The position numbers were made by a program, and so were the translations under genes. The notes below the pieces were generated by a model. That model had not been told where the DNA came from. It saw only the letters and a list, made by a program, of their open reading frames with translations, and made no database searches. From the sequence record NC_052652.1: 64,000 bases of DNA; one strand, written 5' to 3'. This document shows, piece after piece, positions 1,452 to 34,120 of this stretch. Positions within the stretch are counted from its first letter, which is position 1; each line of letters opens with the position of its first letter. Source of the stretch: Escherichia phage vB_EcoM_PHB05.

Positions 1452-2858
1452 ATGGCAACTTTTCGTGATAAGGTAGTTTCCGTAACCCTTACCTACGGTG
1501 CTACTTCAATTAGTGAAACACAGTTTGATATCCCTCTAATTCTTACAGGGCATAACGTTACTGGCAATCTTGTAGATTATTTCACTTCTTCAGACGCACT
1601 TCTGCAAGCAGGTTTTGGCACTGCCGACCCAGCTTATAAAATGGCAAAACTACTATTTGACGGTCTGTTCGCACCAGAACAAGTTATCGTCGGTAAGCGT
1701 GATGTTTCTAAAACAACTCTAACTCCAGTAGTTGAAGATAGTGCAACTTACGTTATCACTATTAAAGCAAATTCAAAAAGCAAGGACTTCAAGTTTGTTG
1801 CCGATGATACTGCAACTGCTCAAGAGATTGTTGTTGGTTTAACAGAAATGATCAACGCAGACATGGTGTATAAAGAATTCTTCACTGTGTCAAACGATGG
1901 TAGTGTTATCACTGTAACCCCAGTTGCAGGTAAATACGCTACTATGGATAGTTCAGGATTCACAACTAAAGTAGAATATGCAAATGATATCTTAGAAGAT
2001 ATTGCTAAAATTGCAGATTATGAAAACAGTTGGTTCTGGTTACTATCTGATTCTCACGCAGAACAAGATATTATCGATCTAGCAGGTTATGTAGAAGAGC
2101 ACGATAAAGTGTATTTCTTCTCTACCTCGCAACCAGGTGTTCTAACTAAAGAAGAAGATAACATTCTAGAACGCTTAGGTGATATGGGCTACAATAACAC
2201 TTGTATGGCATTGTGGATGACTAACGCTGATACAGTGTTCCCAGAGGCTGCTGTAGTTGGTTCTATCTGCTCTGCAACACCAGGTACTACTACCCTGCAT
2301 GGTAAAACCCTTGTTGGTATCGAGATTGAAAAACTTGGTCAGACAGCAGAAAACTTTATCGTTCAACAGAATGGTAATATTTACCGTAAAGAACACGGTG
2401 TTCTGTTCTACCGTGATGGTTTCATGGTTAGTGGTTTCTATGTTGACTATGTGGTACACGCTCTGTGGTTCAAAGCTCGCGTAGAAGAATCTCTGTTTGC
2501 TCTATTCAAACAGCAATCTATGCTTGGTAGTGGTGTTAGAGCAACTTCTGCTGGTCTTGCTTTGATTCGTCAGGCTGTTACTGCAAACCCAATCCAAGTA
2601 GGTATTAACAATGGTTCTATTGCCAATGAGGTAGTAACTTCAGAGGAAACAGGACTTCTGGTAAGCCTTAAACCTACTATCTATATCCCATCTCGTGCAG
2701 ATATGACTGATGCTCAAATCAATGCACGTTTGGTTGATGGTATGGTTATTGAATACGTATATGCTGGATTCTTCCACTATGTTAAAGTGCAGGTAAACGT
2801 TCTGACGAACCGCACTGCAAATAGCCAGAATTCCAATAGCTCTACTGTATCTTCATAA
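1452..2858 (+). CDS. Tail sheath protein (putative)
   Basis: 468 aa; position directly before 159-aa tube-like gene, chaperone and tape measure, the canonical contractile-tail order. Confidence 0.5.
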   Translation: MATFRDKVVSVTLTYGATSISETQFDIPLILTGHNVTGNLVDYFTSSDALLQAGFGTADPAYKMAKLLFDGLFAPEQVIVGKRDVSKTTLTPVVEDSATYVITIKANSKSKDFKFVADDTATAQEIVVGLTEMINADMVYKEFFTVSNDGSVITVTPVAGKYATMDSSGFTTKVEYANDILEDIAKIADYENSWFWLLSDSHAEQDIIDLAGYVEEHDKVYFFSTSQPGVLTKEEDNILERLGDMGYNNTCMALWMTNADTVFPEAAVVGSICSATPGTTTLHGKTLVGIEIEKLGQTAENFIVQQNGNIYRKEHGVLFYRDGFMVSGFYVDYVVHALWFKARVEESLFALFKQQSMLGSGVRATSAGLALIRQAVTANPIQVGINNGSIANEVVTSEETGLLVSLKPTIYIPSRADMTDAQINARLVDGMVIEYVYAGFFHYVKVQVNVLTNRTANSQNSNSSTVSS

Positions 2859-2866
2859 TTAAAAGC

Positions 2867-2884
2867 AGCGGGGGCAACCCCGCT
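2867..2884 (+). terminator. GC-rich stem-loop after sheath gene (agcgggg-N4-ccccgct)
   Basis: Perfect 7-bp inverted repeat just after stop at 2858; weak T-tract, so possibly an attenuator or RNA-stability element. Confidence 0.3.
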
Positions 2885-2916
2885 TATATGAAAAGTAGTA
2901 TAAAAGGAGATCCACT

Positions 2917-3396
2917 TTGGATAAAATGCTTACTGGCGTAATGGCCTATGATCCTTCTCAAGTAATCCTGTCTTTGGGTGGTTGGGAACCTTGGGGTTTC
3001 GCCGCAGATACCAAAATTGTTATTAACAAAACTAACGATATCATCAACCCATATTCAGGTACTGATGGTGACGTTTCCTTGGCGCTTAGTCGTAACCGTT
3101 TAGGTACGCTAACAATGTCACTGCAACGTACTTCCCCAGCAAACGAAGTTCTTGCTGCTTATGCACAAACGATGTATTCTACTCGTCAAGTAGCATTTAG
3201 CGTATATCTAGAAGACCCTCGCGGATATTATATCAGCACAATTGGTTGGATTCAAAGCCAACCGGACGATACTATTGGTGAAACTATTCAAGAAAACCAA
3301 TGGGTGATCGGTCTTAAAGATGCAAGCCTACTTCGTTCTACTGTAGGTGTTGGTGTTAACGCACTTAACTCTATTAGTGCTCTAACTATTCAGTAA
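2917..3396 (+). CDS. Tail tube protein (putative)
   Basis: 159 aa, immediately downstream of sheath candidate; AAGGAG RBS; TTG start. Confidence 0.45.
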   Translation: MDKMLTGVMAYDPSQVILSLGGWEPWGFAADTKIVINKTNDIINPYSGTDGDVSLALSRNRLGTLTMSLQRTSPANEVLAAYAQTMYSTRQVAFSVYLEDPRGYYISTIGWIQSQPDDTIGETIQENQWVIGLKDASLLRSTVGVGVNALNSISALTIQ

Positions 3397-3441: not shown

Positions 3442-3924
3442 ATGGAACAACAAAAAGATAATACTATTGCAAAATTTGCTCGTCCAGAAGTAATGGTTGA
3501 AATTGATCTGGATGAAGGACGCAGTGTAAAATTTAGAGTTCTCAAGTGGAGTCCAACTAAAGTTTTTGAAAGGATTCCAGAACTAGGTAGTGTACTGGCT
3601 GTTCCTATGACAATGTATAATACTGCTCTTATGTCAGCAGACGAAGATCTAGAAGCTCGTATTGCTATGGCACTGATCCAATTATTCAGTGGTCTGGAAG
3701 AAAAAAACTTAGCTGCATTCTTACGTAAAATTTTAGATGAAGTTTACACAGAAGCAGGACACAGTGTTTCCGATAATTTTGATGAATTGTTTTTTGCTCA
3801 CCCAGAATTAGTTGTTGACTTAGCTGCAAAAGTTCTTGAGGTGAACTATGCCCCTTTTTTCAAACGAGGTTTCGGAAAACTGTTGACCCAATTTCAAGGA
3901 ATAGAGACTCTAGCGAAGAGTTAA
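3442..3924 (+). CDS. Tail assembly chaperone (putative)
   Basis: 160-aa acidic protein between tube and tape measure genes. Confidence 0.4.
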   Translation: MEQQKDNTIAKFARPEVMVEIDLDEGRSVKFRVLKWSPTKVFERIPELGSVLAVPMTMYNTALMSADEDLEARIAMALIQLFSGLEEKNLAAFLRKILDEVYTEAGHSVSDNFDELFFAHPELVVDLAAKVLEVNYAPFFKRGFGKLLTQFQGIETLAKS

Positions 3925-21120: not shown

Positions 21121-22101
21121 ATGGCAAAGCCACAATACTACCCTGACTGGGCGACACAAACAGTAACCCTCCCAGGAACGGGAAACACAAACAAGATTAG
21201 ACCAAAAGAAACCATCCGTAATGTCGGTATGGACTTTGGTCAGATTATGACTTGTGAAGAAATGAACTGGATCTTAAACAATATTGGGTCTTGGATTCGC
21301 TATATGCAAGATGAATTCTTCCCAACATTGCCTACTACATATCTTCCTATAGTCGGTACTAAAATTACAATGGCAGGTGATGCTACAGGTGAAGTTACAT
21401 GGAACGGTAATGCTGCTGTAACATTGTCTATTCAAGTCGTAGATAACAGCCATAATCACTTATCAGCTAACATTACAGACGCAACATCAAACCAAGTTGT
21501 AGGGAATGTCCTTGTTAAGCGTGATAATGGTGGTGCTATCTATGCAGGTGATATTTACACTTGTGGTACAGGTGCTACAGATCCTGCAACATTATTTTTT
21601 AGAAACTATAACGGACAAACAGTAGGCAATATGTCTTCTGAACCAGGTGCAGGTGGTCAACTCTATATTTATAGAATAAATCCATCTACTGGAGGAACAT
21701 CTTGTGGAGTTCGTTTGTATGATGCAGGTTATGTTTTAATAGACAATCCTCGTTCTAATTCTGGTCAAGACACTGGCAATGGTAATGCTCTTGTAAGATT
21801 AGATTATCTTAACTCAAGACTAAACTCATTGCAAAGTACATTGCAAAATAATATTAACAACGTTAATAGCAACTTGCAAGGCCAAATTAATAACATTAAC
21901 AATAGAGTTTCTTCTGTTGTGTCTTCTATCCGTCTAGGTACACGTATTAAAGCTGGTGTATCTGAATCTCCTTTCTATGCTGGTCACGTGATCACAGGCT
22001 GGGGTTTTGGTGATAAGAAAGAACTTCGTGGTGCTTGGTATTGGTCTGCTCCGCTACAATATTACATTAATGGTAGGTGGATAACAGTAACCAACGTTTA
22101 G
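21121..22101 (+). CDS. Tail fiber protein (putative)
   Basis: 326 aa; Asn-rich heptad-like segment LNSRLNSLQSTLQNNINNVNSNLQGQINNINNRVSSV typical of fiber shafts. Confidence 0.4.
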   Translation: MAKPQYYPDWATQTVTLPGTGNTNKIRPKETIRNVGMDFGQIMTCEEMNWILNNIGSWIRYMQDEFFPTLPTTYLPIVGTKITMAGDATGEVTWNGNAAVTLSIQVVDNSHNHLSANITDATSNQVVGNVLVKRDNGGAIYAGDIYTCGTGATDPATLFFRNYNGQTVGNMSSEPGAGGQLYIYRINPSTGGTSCGVRLYDAGYVLIDNPRSNSGQDTGNGNALVRLDYLNSRLNSLQSTLQNNINNVNSNLQGQINNINNRVSSVVSSIRLGTRIKAGVSESPFYAGHVITGWGFGDKKELRGAWYWSAPLQYYINGRWITVTNV

Positions 22102-22113
22102 TAAGGAGAACAC

Positions 22114-22665
22114 ATGAAAAAAGATGTTATTTACACTGGCTTTGAACTATATCAACCAGAATTGACAGAAGAAAATGTCATGTATCTTTCAATAGGTGCT
22201 GGTTTTCTTAAAGATAAAGATGGTAATGATTGGTACGAAATTCAGAAATATTTATCCAAAAATTACCCTGATGCCTATTTCTTAACTCTAGATCACAACA
22301 ATGTAGTTGTTGCAGCTACGAAAGATGTTTCTACATATTTTCCCGCTGGTCTTACTGTTCTTGTAACATACAATGTTCCAGATAAGATAGAAGAAGAAAG
22401 CAACCTAGGATCGTGGAGATATGACAATGGTAAGTTTGTTTCTCATAATGGGTTTGCAATAGAAGATGCCAACCTTAAAATGGAAAAAGAATTAACTTGG
22501 GCCACAAATCAAATATCTGCAATTCAAGATTTAGAGGAATTACAAGGTTTATCTGAAGAACAAAAAGATTGGTTAGGAAAAGTTAAACTATATCGTGCAA
22601 CACTGATTCAAATTAACGTTGAAGATGCACCTAATATAACTTGGCCTACAAGACCTAAGAAATAG
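22114..22665 (+). CDS. Hypothetical protein (tail fiber assembly candidate)
   Basis: 183 aa directly downstream of fiber gene. Confidence 0.3.
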   Translation: MKKDVIYTGFELYQPELTEENVMYLSIGAGFLKDKDGNDWYEIQKYLSKNYPDAYFLTLDHNNVVVAATKDVSTYFPAGLTVLVTYNVPDKIEEESNLGSWRYDNGKFVSHNGFAIEDANLKMEKELTWATNQISAIQDLEELQGLSEEQKDWLGKVKLYRATLIQINVEDAPNITWPTRPKK

Positions 22666-30335: not shown

Positions 30336-30716
30336 TTAATCAGTGAAAATTACGCTCACATCTTCTTTAGAGAAGAGTTTATGATCTTCACCTTTTGTCT
30401 CAAGAGTTTCATACAGGTTAAGAAGTTCTGAAACATCTTTCTCTACCAGTTTCTTCAATGTTGCAATTTTCTGTTTGCGACTCTTAATACGTTCAGCTAC
30501 GACCTTACGTTGGTATCCAGCAGTACGATAACCTGAGAAAGTTACACCAGTAAGACTTGCAGTTACAGGATCGTAGTGACGTTCAATCTGAAATTTATTA
30601 AAAGGTACAGCGTCATCACGAATAATCTTACCGCCATTACTTACTTGACGAAGACCAGTAACTTGTTCCAGTCGTGCCATAGAAATCTTTGGAGACAGAC
30701 CAGAGTCCAGGTTCAT
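30336..30716 (-). CDS. Hypothetical protein
   Basis: ORF 30336..30767; start trimmed to internal Met (30716) to avoid overlap with methyltransferase gene; start uncertain. Confidence 0.3.
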   Translation of the reverse strand: MNLDSGLSPKISMARLEQVTGLRQVSNGGKIIRDDAVPFNKFQIERHYDPVTASLTGVTFSGYRTAGYQRKVVAERIKSRKQKIATLKKLVEKDVSELLNLYETLETKGEDHKLFSKEDVSVIFTD

Positions 30717-30723
30717 ACCGTTG

Positions 30724-31455
30724 TTAATCAGTGCTTTCAGGGTGATTTTGCTGTTCAGTGTACTCATTTAGTCGTTCCTCCGCTTGCTTAAAAATATTTA
30801 CATCGGCTTCACAGCCTAAGTATTCTCTACCTGTTAAAAGTGCCGCAACTTGTGTTGTTGCACTTCCAGAGAAGAAGTCTAAGACTACATCTCCTTCGTT
30901 GGTATGTATATTAATAAGGTCACAAAACAAAGTCAAGTGTTTTTGTGTTGGATGAAAACGATCTGCTCCTTGATAGATAGGATACTCAAACACACCCTTA
31001 TGGTAGGAAGCATTGAAGGTTGGCTTCGAACCTTTAACACAAACAATAGCCATCTCTTTAGCGTTACTAAGGTAGTTAACACCACTATTGATGGGTACAG
31101 GGTTTGTTTTAATCCATTCAATAGTACGGAACATACGAAAACCAAGCGGTTCAAGGATTTCACGTAGCTCCTGGATCTTCCAGATATCATACCAAACTAT
31201 GCAAGTACCACCTTTTCTAAGCACCCTATAGGCTTCTTTGAATACTTCTTTAAAGTAAGGAATATCTACAACGTCCCAGTCACCAAAGTTGTAAGATACA
31301 CGGAATCTATCCGTATTTTTTCCAGTAGGCTCTCCAGATTGAAAATTTGTGTCACGAGAAATAGCATATGGTGGGTCAGTAAGAATCAAATCTACACTAT
31401 TGCTTTCGAGGGTTTGCAGGTAGTTTAATGCAGTGTTGTTTACAAATTCGCTCAT
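30724..31455 (-). CDS. DNA methyltransferase, beta-class amino-MTase (N6-adenine or N4-cytosine)
   Basis: DPPY catalytic motif near N-terminus and FFSGSATT AdoMet-binding motif near C-terminus; GAAGGAGA RBS. Confidence 0.7.
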   Translation of the reverse strand: MSEFVNNTALNYLQTLESNSVDLILTDPPYAISRDTNFQSGEPTGKNTDRFRVSYNFGDWDVVDIPYFKEVFKEAYRVLRKGGTCIVWYDIWKIQELREILEPLGFRMFRTIEWIKTNPVPINSGVNYLSNAKEMAIVCVKGSKPTFNASYHKGVFEYPIYQGADRFHPTQKHLTLFCDLINIHTNEGDVVLDFFSGSATTQVAALLTGREYLGCEADVNIFKQAEERLNEYTEQQNHPESTD

Positions 31456-31467
31456 TATATCTCCTTC

Positions 31468-31493
31468 AAAGAAAAGGAGCCGTTAGGCTCCTT
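31468..31493 (-). terminator. Stem-loop ggagcc-gtta-ggctcc (near-identical to hairpin at 30308)
   Basis: Perfect 6-bp stem, downstream of minus-strand gene 31516..32463 with T-tract on minus strand. Confidence 0.4.
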
Positions 31494-31515: not shown

Positions 31516-32463
31516 TTAGAAACAGTGCAGGAAGTTTCGACCATATTGCAAACCAATAGGAGCAAACGGGATATCATCATCGAAATCTTGAACAACAGGT
31601 TCTGGTTCTTTCGGTGCTGGCTCTTTCTTCTCTACTTTTTTAGTTTCTTTCTTAACTTCTTGTACTGGGGTAGACATTCCACGGATAGCCGCAGCTACTT
31701 TATCAGACAAAGCAAGAACTTCACGAGCAGCTTCAATAATCTCTTCTGCCGTTACAGTTTTACCTGTATGATCACGACAAGCGTTAAGAATTGCGTGTCC
31801 AACTGAAGCACCAAGATCATAGTCAGTCACATCAACACCACGATCTTTAGCAATTTCAGCTTTCAGAGTAACAGTTGCAGATTGTACCACACCAGCCAAA
31901 TCGAAAGCATCACCTTTCACACCAGCACGTAGAAGCTCCAGAGCGCCGTTTACAGCGTGTCCTGTTTCAATCCCTACGGTATCACGTTTTTTGTAGTTAG
32001 GCTTGTTACCGTCATTATTAGATGGCTTATTTCCACCTTTTGAAGAGGATTGCGCTTGCTGAACACCTTCTGTTGAAAGAATAGTGATTTTACCTTTAGA
32101 GGAGTTGTAGTATGTTTTGCCATTCCATTCAGAAGGTTTAACATCCATAGTTAGTTCTACACCTTTTTCGATAGTAACCCACTTATCACCATCTTTAACT
32201 TGCAGGTTTTCATGTTCTGGGTGCAGTTTAACTTCACCTAAGCTAACCCAAACACCTTTATCATCAGCACCAGCACCTTTCTCTTTAATAAGCAGAGATG
32301 CTTTGTGAGTTGATTCAATTTTCTTATCTGGCTGACCTGCAACCTTAATATAAGAAACTTTCATTTCATCAAACTTATCTAGTTTGACATATTCGACAAT
32401 ACCTTCAGCCCAGAATGCTTCTTTTTTAGTACGACGGTCGATTTCAGAATTAATTACTGGCAT
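31516..32463 (-). CDS. Putative ssDNA-binding-like protein carrying an SSB-type DFDDDIPF tail motif
   Basis: 315 aa; beta-rich N-terminal region, Lys/Pro-rich linker, then DFDDDIPF 15 residues before the C-terminus. Confidence 0.4.
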   Translation of the reverse strand: MPVINSEIDRRTKKEAFWAEGIVEYVKLDKFDEMKVSYIKVAGQPDKKIESTHKASLLIKEKGAGADDKGVWVSLGEVKLHPEHENLQVKDGDKWVTIEKGVELTMDVKPSEWNGKTYYNSSKGKITILSTEGVQQAQSSSKGGNKPSNNDGNKPNYKKRDTVGIETGHAVNGALELLRAGVKGDAFDLAGVVQSATVTLKAEIAKDRGVDVTDYDLGASVGHAILNACRDHTGKTVTAEEIIEAAREVLALSDKVAAAIRGMSTPVQEVKKETKKVEKKEPAPKEPEPVVQDFDDDIPFAPIGLQYGRNFLHCF

Positions 32464-32479
32464 AAATTCTCCTCTATAA

Positions 32480-32878
32480 TTACATTACTTTAACACAAAA
32501 CTCTCGTAAAAGAGTAGCGTCAGTTTCTTCCAACAGGTATTTACCAAGACCAATACCAAATCCTATTTCACCACTTTCAAAATGGAGAATTTGTATCTTT
32601 TCTCCACCAAGGTTAATTACTTTTGCTTTTCCAGGATTGTCCAAAACATCTCGTATTGTGTCCTGTAGTAGCATAAGTTCACGTTTTGTGATAGTGGTTT
32701 CAGATATCTCTTTGTCTTCTACCCGCACTGTTAAACGGTTGTATCCACCAAAGAGACATAGTATTTGAATAAAAAAGGTATTATCTTGAGGTTCAACATC
32801 TTTTTTAGTTAGTTCAAGACGATTAGTTTCTCTACTATAGAACGTCTCGACTAAGATTTTAGAACGATTGTCTGTCAT
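32480..32878 (-). CDS. Hypothetical protein
   Basis: 132-aa ORF. Confidence 0.35.
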   Translation of the reverse strand: MTDNRSKILVETFYSRETNRLELTKKDVEPQDNTFFIQILCLFGGYNRLTVRVEDKEISETTITKRELMLLQDTIRDVLDNPGKAKVINLGGEKIQILHFESGEIGFGIGLGKYLLEETDATLLREFCVKVM

Positions 32879-32921
32879 TCAAGTTCTCATAATAACACAT
32901 AATTGTAAGGTTTGTCAACAC

Positions 32922-33536
32922 TTAAATCTTAAATTCTTCGTTGTTAAACGAATCCAGTGTACGTACTTCTGGTTCTTTGGGAATGAAAACGTCTTTTACA
33001 AAGCGGAACATAGGGAAACGTTCTGCCATTTTACGGACGTGTGCTTCTTTACCTGTGTATCGGTGATTAATAGTGCAAATATTAGTCTTCAATGCAAAGT
33101 CAAAATCTGGATGATATACATAATTTTGACCATCCCAGTAACACAGGCAAATAGCTACGTCAAAGTTCCATACGATTTCACTGCGTACACCCTCTTCCAT
33201 GATCATAAAGTTAAACTTAAGATCTTTATAGTATGCTTCAAATACCCATTTCAAATGTGGTAGTTCGGCATAAGTGTGTTCTGTTTGCTTAGTAAGTTGT
33301 TTAACATTACGTGCACCAACACCCAACATCAAAAATTTCTCTACCAGTACGGTTGTATTGTGGTTAGGCATACGCAAGTAAATGTCAATATCTTGCGCAG
33401 GTGTTTCTAATCGCCAGTCGCGTACAGCGCCGCCAGCTACAATTGCAAACGGATCTACCAGTTGGCACATACGTAATACTTCTAAAGCGCGTACTTTTTG
33501 ATCTTCAATATTCATATTTTCTCCTATCGTGTCCAC
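32922..33536 (-). CDS. Nucleotidyltransferase-fold protein (CCA-enzyme/poly(A) polymerase head-domain-like)
   Basis: Motif FAIVAGGAVRDWRLE...DIDIY matches GGxVRD...DxD signature of class II tRNA nucleotidyltransferase heads. Confidence 0.45.
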   Translation of the reverse strand: MDTIGENMNIEDQKVRALEVLRMCQLVDPFAIVAGGAVRDWRLETPAQDIDIYLRMPNHNTTVLVEKFLMLGVGARNVKQLTKQTEHTYAELPHLKWVFEAYYKDLKFNFMIMEEGVRSEIVWNFDVAICLCYWDGQNYVYHPDFDFALKTNICTINHRYTGKEAHVRKMAERFPMFRFVKDVFIPKEPEVRTLDSFNNEEFKI

Positions 33537-34120
33537 TCTTTATGTTGTTCTACATGCTCAAGCATTTCATTATACAGTGCTTTAAGATGTGGAACAACTC
33601 TTTCATCTTCAGTTTCAAAGAATTTTGTAAGCTGTTCTGCTTTAGCTTTCAACCAGCAAAGATGCGCTTCAATTTCAGTATTAAAACGCCCCAGCGTTTT
33701 CATGCGACCGTCTACTTTTATATTGGCTTTGTATTTATTACGATCTTTTTCGTAACTACAGCCTACCATAGTTCCATGAGATCTTTTACTTACTCTATAA
33801 GCTAAGAACTTATTAAGATCTCCTGTTACTAAAAGACAGGTATCGGGAGAGTAAACCCTCCCTCCTATAATATCTTTATCAAGTTCTAAGTTTTCCCAGT
33901 TTTCCCAAGTTTGCAACCAGGAGTAGAAATTTGAGAACAGTTTCCATTCTTCACAAACCGTCACCCCCTTATAACAAGGATCACGTTCTTGTTGGCAAGG
34001 GGAGTAACACCTCCCCAACATAGCCATCCATTTCATATAATGCGGCGTTAGTTTCTTACTACCAGGTAGCGTACTCTCGCCTTGCAAATCATTAATACCT
34101 TCACCATATACGGTAAGCAT
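33524..34120 (-). CDS. Homing-endonuclease-like protein (AP2-type DNA-binding region)
   Basis: 198 aa; Cys-rich N-terminal half and AP2-like segment YKANIKVDGRMKTLGRFNTEIEAHLCW; freestanding between replication genes. Confidence 0.35.
   Translation of the reverse strand: MLTVYGEGINDLQGESTLPGSKKLTPHYMKWMAMLGRCYSPCQQERDPCYKGVTVCEEWKLFSNFYSWLQTWENWENLELDKDIIGGRVYSPDTCLLVTGDLNKFLAYRVSKRSHGTMVGCSYEKDRNKYKANIKVDGRMKTLGRFNTEIEAHLCWLKAKAEQLTKFFETEDERVVPHLKALYNEMLEHVEQHKEWTR

What the first reader, a model, noticed from the sequence alone, without database searches (positions are those of the whole stretch)
31516..32463. Protein carrying the E. coli SSB-type DFDDDIPF tail motif near its C-terminus
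The 315-aa protein has a beta-rich N-terminal part, a Lys/Pro-rich linker and the exact DFDDDIPF motif by which bacterial SSB recruits partner proteins, but the motif is followed by 15 further residues. It may be a phage SSB, or a decoy that competes for host SSB-interacting enzymes. The internal position is unusual because partner binding normally needs the free C-terminal Phe, raising the possibility of a sequencing error or a regulated tail.
Basis: partly seen in the sequence, partly recalled or inferred. Interest (0 to 1): 0.6.

Follow-up and report, generated by a model that had tools for sequence, protein, structure and literature searches.

The report
Phage SSB with a capped tail
This is most likely the phage's own single-stranded-DNA-binding protein; it copies the host SSB's partner-recruiting tail but buries the normally free end under a conserved 15-residue cap that is common and mobile among phage SSBs and that I could not find described.

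Summary
ORF 31516..32463 (-) encodes 315 aa with DFDDDIPF at residues 293-300, then APIGLQYGRNFLHCF and a stop. The window is a phi92-like E. coli myophage. All 30 listed relatives (at least 99% identical) span the whole ORF, so this is not a sequencing error.

The protein belongs to PHROG 4477. It has a confidently predicted N-terminal OB fold, a four-helix bundle, a disordered Lys/Pro/Glu linker and a host-like SSB tip. It sits between the DNA polymerase and a methyltransferase and is the only SSB-annotated gene of a 99%-identical phage. A 2026 preprint names the apparent rV5-type orthologue, Bas52_0087, as the SSB-like trigger of the DRT10 defence.

The new part is the 15-residue cap:
- About 80% of family members end at ...DDDIPF.
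- The cap recurs on classical SSBs, DUF669-type SSBs, other phage families and a primase-helicase.
- It is under protein-level purifying selection.
- It is swapped between near-identical phages.
- In rV5-like phages it arrives together with an endonuclease gene inserted exactly after the Phe codon.
- About 30% of phage FDDDIPF motifs in a sample are capped, in several sequence classes.

The cap's function is untested. My best guess is that it re-wires or gates tip binding.

The parts
32889..32918 (-). Sigma-70-like promoter (TTGACA, 18 nt, TG-TATTAT; 11 of 12 matches) upstream of the two-gene unit formed by the 132-aa ORF and the SSB-like gene
   Evidence: This is a consensus match only. The region as a whole has no more promoter-like sites than its shuffles do.
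32480..32878 (-). Upstream 132-aa ORF (PHROG 16560, unknown function). It ends 16 nt before the SSB-like gene and is probably co-transcribed with it.
   Evidence: An ORF of similar size occupies the same position in Phapecoctavirus.
32469..32474 (-). Shine-Dalgarno-like GAGGAG, five bases before the ATG
   Evidence: read directly from the sequence
32074..32463 (-). Residues 1-130: N-terminal OB-fold domain, the presumed ssDNA-binding module
31984..32073 (-). Residues 131-160: low-complexity Gly/Ser/Asn/Lys linker. rV5-type relatives carry an extra ~70-aa beta domain at this point.
31678..31983 (-). Residues 161-262: four-helix bundle carrying two GHA(V/I)xNA motifs. It is the best-conserved part of the family and a putative oligomerisation or interaction domain.
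   Evidence: AF2 pLDDT 92-98. Conserved columns D161, G164, G168, H169, N172, G218, G222. rV5 D252, the position of a DRT10-escape substitution in Bas52_0087, aligns with D161.
31588..31677 (-). Residues 263-292: intrinsically disordered Lys/Pro/Glu-rich linker
   Evidence: pLDDT 54-69
31564..31587 (-). Residues 293-300: DFDDDIPF, identical to the E. coli SSB C-terminal tip
   Evidence: A family profile matches E. coli SSB chains only in ...EPPMDFDDDIPF.
31519..31563 (-). Residues 301-315: the cap APIGLQYGRNFLHCF, a conserved portable extension that removes the free Phe carboxylate
31516..31518 (-). TAA stop codon (a second in-frame stop, TAG, follows)
31474..31493 (-). Intrinsic-terminator-like hairpin (GGAGCC-taac-GGCTCC followed by a T run). 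A near-identical hairpin follows the capped allele in phage vB_Ec-G1.

Best explanation
The gene most likely encodes the replication-fork ssDNA-binding protein of a phi92-like myophage. It is not a member of the bacterial SSB family by sequence.

Inferred from the fold: an N-terminal OB fold binds ssDNA, and a four-helix bundle probably mediates self-association. Shown by the sequence: a disordered linker presents an exact copy of the host SSB acidic tip (DFDDDIPF), the peptide by which E. coli SSB recruits its partner enzymes.

In this allele the tip is capped by 15 further residues. The cap is a separate, portable linear motif with three parts:
- an A-P start;
- a conserved hydrophobic-G-L-Q-Y core;
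- a variable hydrophobic end.

The cap is kept by protein-level selection. It moves between phage genes by recombination within the conserved tip-coding DNA. In rV5-like phages it travels as the leading edge of an endonuclease (putative homing endonuclease) cassette inserted exactly after the Phe codon.

Mechanism (inferred, not shown): canonical SSB partners clamp the free alpha-carboxylate of the last Phe. The cap should therefore weaken promiscuous docking and add a second contact surface. This would filter or re-target which host factor the phage SSB engages, or otherwise gate the tip. The partner is unknown.
For: Identity and context:
- 100% identical to proteins of phages JohannJBalmer and ECGD1, and 96.5% to phi92 gp156.
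- PHROG 4477, E = 4e-101.
- Lies in the cluster primase/helicase, DNA polymerase, nucleotidyltransferase, hypothetical, this gene, methyltransferase.
- It is the only CDS annotated as SSB in the 145-kb genome of the 99%-identical phage Eryne.

Fold:
- AF2 mean pLDDT 85.5, with both globular domains above 90.

Family function:
- Bas52_0087 is reported as SSB-like with an FDDDIPF C-tip, and substitutions D252V and Y351C escape DRT10.
- rV5 ORF214 has D at 252 and Y at 351, and is 35% identical to the window protein over residues 161-315.

Cap is real and selected:
- 78 of 99 family members end at or one residue after ...IPF, and 21 carry a 14-17 aa extension.
- At conserved cap residues all synonymous codons are in use.
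- pN/pS is 0.15 for the three cap codons that the search pattern did not constrain, at pS about 0.8, in loci without a detected endonuclease.
- The six DNA differences between the caps of vB_Ec-G1 and the window are all synonymous.

Cap is portable. It occurs on:
- PF00436 SSBs, T1-like SSBs and a DnaB-like primase-helicase;
- PHROG 2544/32668, PHROG 9002 (DUF669), PHROG 3284 and an Ead/Ea22-like chimera.

Exchange:
- phAPEC8_ev052 (uncapped) and vB_Ec-G1 (capped) are identical through the globular domains.
- AlexBoehm versus EmilHeitz/rV5 differ by one ~640-nt indel, cap plus endonuclease gene, placed directly after the Phe codon.

The need of canonical partners for the free Phe carboxylate is established knowledge of the SSB-Ct complexes with ExoI, RecQ, chi, PriA and RecO (my own knowledge).
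Against: - No experiment shows ssDNA binding for any member of this family.
- The cap is modelled as disordered, with pLDDT below 50, so its structure gives no hint.
- I could not run any peptide-protein docking, so the re-targeting idea has no direct support.
- Capped and uncapped alleles coexist in near-identical phages, so the cap is dispensable under at least some conditions.
- The perfect linkage to the endonuclease gene in the listed Vequintavirus rows allows the cap to have spread for reasons unrelated to SSB function.
- Several unrelated cap classes exist. That fits 'capping as such' at least as well as one specific partner.
Confidence: 0.6

Rival explanations
1. The cap is a degradation or turnover signal. 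Its non-polar C-terminal end (...HCF, ...YAL, ...HAI, ...NCM, ...LAM) would be read by ClpXP, ClpAP, FtsH or Lon. The conserved APIGLQY part could serve as an adaptor site, by analogy with the two-part ssrA tag. Phage SSB level or residence time on DNA would then be controlled by proteolysis or by unfoldase remodelling.
For: - The last positions are consistently hydrophobic at -1, small at -2 and Leu/Ile at -4 across 54 caps.
- Some caps end YAL, YALS, YALA or ALYA, which resembles the ssrA ending.
- The rule that non-polar C-termini destabilise cytoplasmic proteins is established knowledge (my own, not tested here).
- The close relative Eryne encodes an HslV-family peptidase.
Against: - The most conserved part is the N-terminal half of the cap, not the extreme C-terminus (pN/pS 0.08-0.15 against 0.52).
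- A processive protease starting at the C-terminus would also destroy the conserved tip, so the benefit is unclear.
- No degron family was tested here.
Confidence: 0.15
2. The cap is removed after translation by cleavage at the Phe-Ala bond. This regenerates a native ...DDDIPF-COOH end. The extension would then be phenotypically silent, which would explain how a mobile cassette can sit in frame at the stop codon of an essential replication gene.
For: - The cap always starts immediately after Phe.
- Three cap classes start with Ala-Pro.
- The tip itself stays strictly conserved in capped alleles.
- In rV5-like phages the cap is part of an endonuclease-gene insertion.
Against: - I know of no protease with this specificity, and nothing in the data points to one.
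- A cleavage signal would not obviously need 14-16 residues with a conserved G-L-Q-Y core and a hydrophobic end.
Confidence: 0.1
3. The cap has no function in the SSB protein. It is a passenger or scar of an endonuclease family that homes into the conserved 3' end of ssb genes. It could be carried along by co-conversion, or kept because it disrupts the endonuclease target and so protects the allele from cleavage in mixed infections.
For: - The cap plus a PHROG 1035 endonuclease gene form a single indel directly after the Phe codon in Vequintavirus, and the endonuclease ATG lies inside the cap codons.
- In the spread sample of Vequintavirus records, every capped allele with annotation has the overlapping endonuclease, and no uncapped allele does.
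- Related endonuclease genes follow capped genes built on three different SSB scaffolds. Counts are 6-8 of 56 capped loci against 2-4 of 110 uncapped loci, Fisher p about 0.02.
- One SSB ending ...IPFN is also followed by this endonuclease type.
Against: - About 85% of capped loci, including this window, have no such gene downstream.
- In those loci the peptide is still conserved while synonymous sites are near saturation.
- Cap lengths cluster at 14-16 residues with almost no truncated forms.
- A target-disrupting scar would be constrained at the DNA level, or not at all. It would not be constrained at the amino-acid level.
- The endonuclease seeds came from capped loci and the loci are not independent, so the enrichment is soft.
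Confidence: 0.12
4. The protein is not a working SSB. It is a decoy whose role is to soak up host SSB-interacting enzymes, or to perturb host ssDNA metabolism, through its tail.
For: - The tip is identical to the host's.
- The DRT10 preprint raises competition with ExoI (SbcB) for the apparent rV5-type orthologue.
- Small or non-OB proteins carrying the same tail exist, for example P0112 and P0113.
Against: - It has a confident OB fold plus a conserved second domain.
- It is the only SSB candidate in a phage that encodes its own polymerase and primase-helicase.
- A capped tip should be a poorer competitor for carboxylate-dependent pockets, not a better one.
Confidence: 0.08
5. The extension is an artefact: a sequencing error, frameshift or missed stop at the end of the gene.
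For: None beyond the unusual internal position of the motif.
Against: - The identical or near-identical full-length ORF is found in independently sequenced phages; all 30 listed relatives align over 1-315.
- Homologous caps occur on many unrelated genes with all synonymous codons in use.
- The ORF has a clean stop followed by a terminator-like hairpin.
Confidence: 0.01

Closest known systems
Bas52_0087 / rV5 ORF214, the SSB-like trigger of the DRT10 (UG17) reverse-transcriptase defence (bioRxiv 10.64898/2026.04.29.721553)
   Same: - rV5 ORF214 gives BLASTP E = 4e-22 with 35% identity over residues 161-315 of the window protein.
- OB fold, conserved helical domain, disordered tail and SSB-like tip are shared.
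- The escape position D252 corresponds to the near-invariant D161 here.
   Different: - The rV5-type protein is about 420 aa and has a second inserted beta domain.
- The preprint describes the tip only. In what I read it does not mention residues after it.
- I did not read the Bas52 sequence itself. Its orthology with rV5 ORF214 is inferred from the matching D252/Y351 positions and the locus-tag range.
- Whether the phi92-type protein triggers DRT10 is unknown.
E. coli SSB (PF00436) and its C-terminal tip, SSB-Ct
   Same: - Overall layout: OB fold, disordered linker, acidic tip.
- DFDDDIPF is identical to the host's last eight residues.
   Different: - No PF00436, TIGR00621 or other SSB model matches.
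- An extra four-helix domain is present.
- The linker is Lys/Pro/Glu-rich rather than Gly/Gln/Pro-rich.
- The tip is not terminal.
T7 gp2.5 and gp4 (acidic C-terminal tails ending in Phe that dock on the T7 DNA polymerase)
   Same: - A phage SSB organises its replisome through an acidic, aromatic-ended tail.
- In Klebsiella Mydovirus-like phages both the SSB-like protein and the primase-helicase carry the capped tail. This mirrors the shared tails of gp2.5 and gp4 (my own knowledge).
   Different: - No sequence or family relationship was found.
- T7 tails need the free terminal Phe, whereas here it is capped.
- The same cap also occurs in lambdoid and T1-like phages, which (my own knowledge) do not encode their own DNA polymerase. 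That argues for a host partner.
RPA32 / STN1-type OB folds
   Different: About 10% sequence identity. This is fold-level resemblance only, with no evidence of common ancestry beyond the OB superfold.
Free-standing homing endonuclease genes of phages (for example T4 seg/mob genes) that sit next to a conserved gene and spread with flanking markers
   Same: In Vequintavirus the cap and an endonuclease gene form one insertion at a conserved site, with patchy presence among near-identical genomes.
   Different: - Here the insertion extends the reading frame of the neighbouring gene with a conserved peptide.
- The window itself has the cap without any endonuclease gene downstream.
- Cleavage specificity has not been tested.

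Membership tests
Bacterial/phage SSB family (Pfam PF00436, TIGR00621) | Sequence match of the OB domain to the SSB profile | tested here: not met
   No Pfam family at E <= 1 and no NCBIfam family. The PDB profile search matches SSB chains only in the tail.
Bacterial/phage SSB family (Pfam PF00436, TIGR00621) | Acidic tip ...DDDIPF at the extreme C-terminus with a free Phe carboxylate | tested here: not met
   The motif is present but is followed by 15 residues.
Bacterial/phage SSB family (Pfam PF00436, TIGR00621) | High-affinity ssDNA binding as a homotetramer | not testable with these tools
   Needs EMSA or fluorescence titration, and SEC-MALS.
OB-fold ssDNA-binding proteins (structural class) | Five-stranded closed beta-barrel of OB topology | tested here: met
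PHROG 4477 (rV5 ORF214 / phi92 gp156 / Bas52_0087 family) | Profile match over the protein | tested here: met
   E = 4.1e-101. 100 homologues were found. 96.5% identical to phi92 gp156.
PHROG 4477 (rV5 ORF214 / phi92 gp156 / Bas52_0087 family) | Architecture of OB domain, conserved helical domain (D-x2-G-x-E-T-G-H-A and L-G-A-S-V-G-H-A motifs), disordered linker and SSB-like tip | tested here: met
   Alignment A1: near-invariant D161, G164, G168, H169, N172, G218, G222, P299, F300.
PHROG 4477 (rV5 ORF214 / phi92 gp156 / Bas52_0087 family) | Triggers DRT10 defence during infection | not testable with these tools
   Reported only for Bas52_0087.
Capped SSB tip, APIGLQY class (defined here) | Extension starts directly after ...IPF, reads A-P-(I/V/L)-G-L-Q-(Y/F), is 14-16 residues in all, and ends (L/I)-x-(small)-(hydrophobic) | tested here: met
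   APIGLQYGRNFLHCF is 15 residues and fits the position table built from 54 caps. The profile built from such tails recovers 52 proteins at E <= 0.001.
Endonuclease cassette at the ssb stop codon (rV5 type) | Endonuclease ORF (PHROG 1035 or 2340) overlapping or directly following the cap | tested here: not met
   In the window the cap is followed by a terminator-like hairpin and then a PF01555 methyltransferase gene. The only HNH-type ORF nearby (33524..34120) lies upstream of the gene, between the nucleotidyltransferase and polymerase genes.
Tail-only decoy of SSB partners | SSB tip without a nucleic-acid-binding domain | tested here: not met
   An OB fold and a second conserved domain are present.
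Beta-clamp-binding motif (QL[SD]LF / QLxLxL) | Match of the cap to the clamp-binding consensus | tested here: inconclusive
   Compared by eye only. P-I-G-L-Q-Y has the x-hydrophobic-x-L-x-hydrophobic spacing but lacks the leading Gln, and the other cap classes do not fit. No docking was possible.

The most novel reading that the evidence does not exclude
Capping of the SSB tip is a general, so far undescribed strategy of phages of Gammaproteobacteria and their relatives. In this reading, short conserved C-terminal peptides in at least four sequence classes are grafted directly onto ...DDDIPF of phage SSBs and other replication proteins. They convert the host's universal, carboxylate-dependent recruitment peptide into a two-part motif with a different partner set. 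That could mean avoiding host nucleases or defence sensors that read the free tip, or capturing a specific host factor. These caps are traded between phages, sometimes by endonucleases that use the conserved tip-coding DNA as their landing site.
Probability: 0.35. Interest if true: 0.8.

Novelty: new variant of a known kind. Interest (0 to 1): 0.6.

Why it matters
The SSB C-terminal tip is the hub through which more than a dozen bacterial genome-maintenance enzymes find ssDNA. It is also being pursued as an antibacterial target. Phage SSBs have lately emerged as the signals that several defence systems sense (Retron-Eco8, DARNA, AbpAB, DRT10).

A conserved, mobile peptide sits exactly on the one chemical group that canonical partners need. 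It is present on roughly a third of tip-bearing phage proteins in a sample. This suggests that phages tune this hub in a way I could not find described.

Natural near-isogenic pairs with and without the cap already exist in public collections: phAPEC8_ev052 versus vB_Ec-G1, and BASEL phages Bas56 versus Bas49. The question can therefore be tested directly.

The Vequintavirus case also gives a clean example of an endonuclease cassette that extends the neighbouring reading frame instead of interrupting it.

Tried and rejected
- **Family and sequence searches.** Pfam and NCBIfam scans of the protein found nothing. A PDB sequence-profile search matched only the tail. BFVD Foldseek found only uncharacterised homologues. 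The afdb50 library was unavailable.
- **Literature.** A full-text search for cap fragments (PIGLQY, IPFAP, FAPIGL, FAPVGL, GLQYGR, DIPFA) returned no relevant paper. The HK620 Sak4/SSB paper concerns a terminal NDYPPF tail only. The LL5/LL12 host-factor screen gave no replication-related lead.
- **Other copies in the phage.** No second tip or cap was found in the window or in the whole Eryne genome.
- **Frameshift or slippery site at the tip.** No obvious slippery heptamer at CCG TTT GCT, and no early stop in the alternative frames by eye. I dropped this idea.
- **A shared phage-encoded partner next to capped genes.** Neighbour clustering in 46 loci gave only lineage-specific neighbours such as RdgC-like proteins and methyltransferases. 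There was no universal partner.
- **Methyltransferase link.** MTase-like ORFs lie downstream of 11 of 56 capped loci against 7 of 110 uncapped loci (p = 0.016). The loci are not independent and the enzymes belong to different classes, so I do not build on it.
- **Clamp-binding motif and ssrA-like degron.** Both comparisons were by eye only and are not conclusive.
- **Genomic context of the small capped protein P0112.** The contig is only 670 nt, so it was uninformative.
- **Bacterial genome scan.** Most of the 76 matches were chance hits in unrelated proteins. About 15 were true capped SSBs: 14 from Gammaproteobacteria and one from a MAG labelled Parasphingorhabdus, an alphaproteobacterium.
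Full report
**What is there**

The minus-strand ORF 31516..32463 encodes 315 residues. It has a GAGGAG ribosome-binding site five bases before the ATG. It ends in TAA, and a terminator-like hairpin follows at 31493..31474. DFDDDIPF occupies residues 293-300 and is followed by APIGLQYGRNFLHCF. The back-translated motif occurs once in the window and never in 100 shuffles.

The window is a phi92-like (Justusliebigvirus) E. coli myophage. The protein is 100% identical to those of JohannJBalmer and ECGD1 and 96.5% identical to phi92 gp156. tblastn found 54 records at 90% identity or more, and all 30 listed rows (each at least 99% identical) span the full ORF. A sequencing error or missed stop is excluded.

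**What the protein is**

No Pfam or NCBIfam model matches. The protein belongs to PHROG 4477, 'unknown function', at E = 4e-101. A profile of 65 homologues matches solved structures only through the tail, which equals the E. coli SSB ending EPPMDFDDDIPF.

AlphaFold2 with that alignment gives a confident model with mean pLDDT 85.5:
- a beta domain, residues 1-130;
- a floppy Gly/Ser/Asn/Lys linker;
- a four-helix bundle, residues 163-260;
- a disordered C-terminal 55 residues.

The gene lies in the order primase/helicase, DNA polymerase, nucleotidyltransferase, 132-aa ORF, this gene, methyltransferase. In the PHROG-annotated genome of the 99%-identical phage Eryne it is the only CDS called SSB. 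That phage encodes its own polymerase, primase-helicase, helicase and ligase.

**Link to a published protein**

A 2026 preprint reports that Bas52_0087 of a BASEL phage is needed to trigger the DRT10 reverse-transcriptase defence. It describes the protein as SSB-like, with two OB folds and a disordered tail bearing FDDDIPF. The escape substitutions are D252V and Y351C.

rV5 ORF214, a 423-aa relative of the window protein, has D at 252 and Y at 351. I infer that Bas52_0087 is its orthologue; I did not read the Bas52 sequence. D252 aligns with the near-invariant D161 at the start of the helical domain here.

So 'SSB-like phage protein with a host-type tip' has just been described for a distant relative. 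ssDNA binding has not been measured for any member.

**The extension is the interesting part**

Among 99 family members, 77 end exactly at ...IPF and one has a single extra residue. Twenty-one carry a 14-17 residue extension, nearly all reading A-P-(I/V)-G-L-Q-Y followed by a variable hydrophobic end. On a neighbour-joining tree these 21 need at least 15 state changes.

The same cap occurs on many other proteins:
- classical PF00436 SSBs of temperate phages, for example mEp235;
- T1-like SSBs, for example phiEB49 gp26;
- Vibrio phage SSBs;
- the DnaB-like primase-helicase of Klebsiella Mydovirus-like phages.

A profile of the tail searched against 1.84 billion representative proteins adds further carriers: PHROG 2544/32668, PHROG 9002 (DUF669), PHROG 3284, an Ead/Ea22-like chimera and several small proteins.

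In one genome per bacterial species, about 15 true capped SSBs were found. Fourteen are from Gammaproteobacteria. The four from Enterobacterales and Orbales have a 15-16 residue version ending roughly x-(K/R/S)-H-x-I-(H/Y/N)-x-I. The ten marine hits, including one MAG labelled Parasphingorhabdus, have a 14-residue version, mostly of the P-A-L-L-x-x-M type. One Vibrio phage breaks this rule.

**Selection on the cap**

At the conserved cap residues all synonymous codons are used. In loci without a detected endonuclease, synonymous differences are near saturation (pS about 0.8). pN/pS is 0.15 for the three cap codons that my search pattern did not fix, and 0.52 for the C-terminal half. The caps of vB_Ec-G1 and the window differ at six of 48 bases, all synonymous. 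Cap lengths cluster at 14-16 residues. The constraint therefore acts on the peptide, not on a DNA or RNA element.

**How the cap moves**

*Phapecoctavirus.* phAPEC8_ev052 (uncapped) and vB_Ec-G1 (capped) have identical flanking genes. Their proteins are identical through both globular domains. The 3' end of the G1 gene, cap plus terminator hairpin, resembles that of the window. This points to recombination within the conserved tip-coding DNA.

*Vequintavirus.* AlexBoehm (Bas56) ends ...DDIPF followed by a stop. EmilHeitz (Bas49) and rV5 carry a single ~640-nt insertion directly after the Phe codon. It consists of the cap (APVGLQYGKSRIHAL) and a 207-aa PHROG 1035 endonuclease gene, annotated as endonuclease VII or putative homing endonuclease, whose ATG lies inside the cap codons. 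In a spread sample of about 116 Vequintavirus records, the 15 capped rows show the overlapping endonuclease wherever annotation exists. The 40 uncapped rows do not.

*Other scaffolds.* Related endonuclease genes follow capped genes on three different SSB scaffolds. One SSB ending ...IPFN is also followed by this endonuclease type. However, about 85% of capped loci, including this window, have no such gene downstream. The endonuclease looks like one vehicle for the cap, not the explanation of its conservation.

**Capping is more general**

An arbitrary sample of IMG/VR loci encoding FDDDIPF shows that about 30% are not terminal: 24 of the 80 listed rows, and about 36 of 120 overall. Besides the APIGLQY/APVTLPF class there are three others:
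- a 9-residue A-P-L-H-H-L-A-G-A class;
- an 11-12 residue x-N-P-Y-R-G-...-L-L-I class;
- a 15-residue M-(W/R)-H-G-...-W-R-A-M class.

**How it most likely works**

Shown:
- the anatomy of the protein;
- the identity of the tip with the host's;
- the portability, selection and exchange of the cap.

Inferred:
- the OB domain binds ssDNA at phage forks;
- the helical domain mediates self-association, as the preprint also suggests for its escape positions;
- the tail plugs the phage SSB into the host SSB interactome.

Canonical partners (ExoI, RecQ, chi, PriA, RecO) clamp the free carboxylate of the last Phe; this is established knowledge, not tested here. A capped tip should therefore dock poorly in those pockets. 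The conserved core and hydrophobic end look like a second short linear motif. I therefore favour a filter or re-targeting role for a conserved gammaproteobacterial factor.

Serious rivals remain: a degradation or remodelling signal, post-translational removal that restores the native end, and a largely passive ride with the endonuclease. No tool here could dock peptides, so the partner is unknown.

**Verdict**

The SSB reading is supported. The sequencing-error reading is refuted. The pure-decoy reading is unlikely.

The protein family is newly but already described as SSB-like. The cap, its breadth, its mobility and its link to an endonuclease cassette are not described in the literature I could search.

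Noticed in passing
window 33524..34120 (-): A 198-aa ORF matching PHROG 953 'HNH endonuclease' (E = 7e-75) lies between the nucleotidyltransferase gene and the DNA polymerase gene. At the equivalent place phage Eryne has only a 31-aa ORF. This looks like an extra free-standing homing endonuclease in this phage.
   Followed up: partly
window 30724..31455 (-): A PF01555 N6/N4 DNA methyltransferase gene lies directly downstream of the capped SSB gene and overlaps a 143-aa ORF (30336..30767). This two-gene block is absent in Phapecoctavirus, where a tail gene follows the SSB gene. Methyltransferase-like ORFs are commoner downstream of capped genes (11 of 56) than of uncapped ones (7 of 110), but the loci are not independent.
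   Followed up: partly
window 32480..32878 (-): A 132-aa ORF (PHROG 16560, unknown function) sits 16 nt upstream of the SSB-like gene, behind the best promoter-like site of the region (32918..32889). An ORF of similar size occupies the same position in Phapecoctavirus. It could be a partner of the SSB-like protein.
   Followed up: no
L004 518..2581 and 2638..3147 (Klebsiella phage vB_Kpn_K54_rec2); also L013, L038, L061: A DnaB-like primase-helicase ends ...PDDDTPFAPIGLQYAKHAIYVI, that is, a tip-like motif plus the same cap. It is followed 56 nt later by an HNH_3/AP2 endonuclease gene. tblastn reports two tail matches in the same genome, consistent with the SSB-like protein also being capped.
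   Followed up: partly
L271-L304 (IMG/VR loci): There are other, unrelated extensions directly after FDDDIPF on phage SSBs: APLHHLAGA-like (9 aa), xNPYRGxxxLLI-like (11-12 aa) and M(W/R)HGxxGAxVxWRAM (15 aa). One SSB has a 24-residue hydrophobic, transmembrane-like tail (L287).
   Followed up: partly
L142 about 3886..3915 (phage phAPEC8_ev052): In the uncapped allele the bases after the stop (TGATCTTATTGATTTATAAAG) align with about half identity, offset by one base, to the cap codons of the capped allele (TGCCCCTATTGGACTGCAATATGG). This could be a decayed cap or chance in AT-rich DNA.
   Followed up: no
L268 2938..3468 and 22074..22484 (phage Eryne, outside the window): Two other hypothetical proteins of the phage end in acidic, aromatic-terminated tails (...SWDDDY and ...RDDDSEF). 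This is reminiscent of T7-type replisome tails.
   Followed up: no
L268 11426..12079 (phage Eryne, outside the window): The phage encodes an HslV-family peptidase. This may be relevant if the cap is a proteolytic signal.
   Followed up: no
window 31678..31983 (-): The helical domain contains two similar motifs (ETGHAVNGAL and SVGHAILNAC), each with a conserved His. This suggests an internal duplication or a pseudo-symmetric site of unknown role.
   Followed up: no
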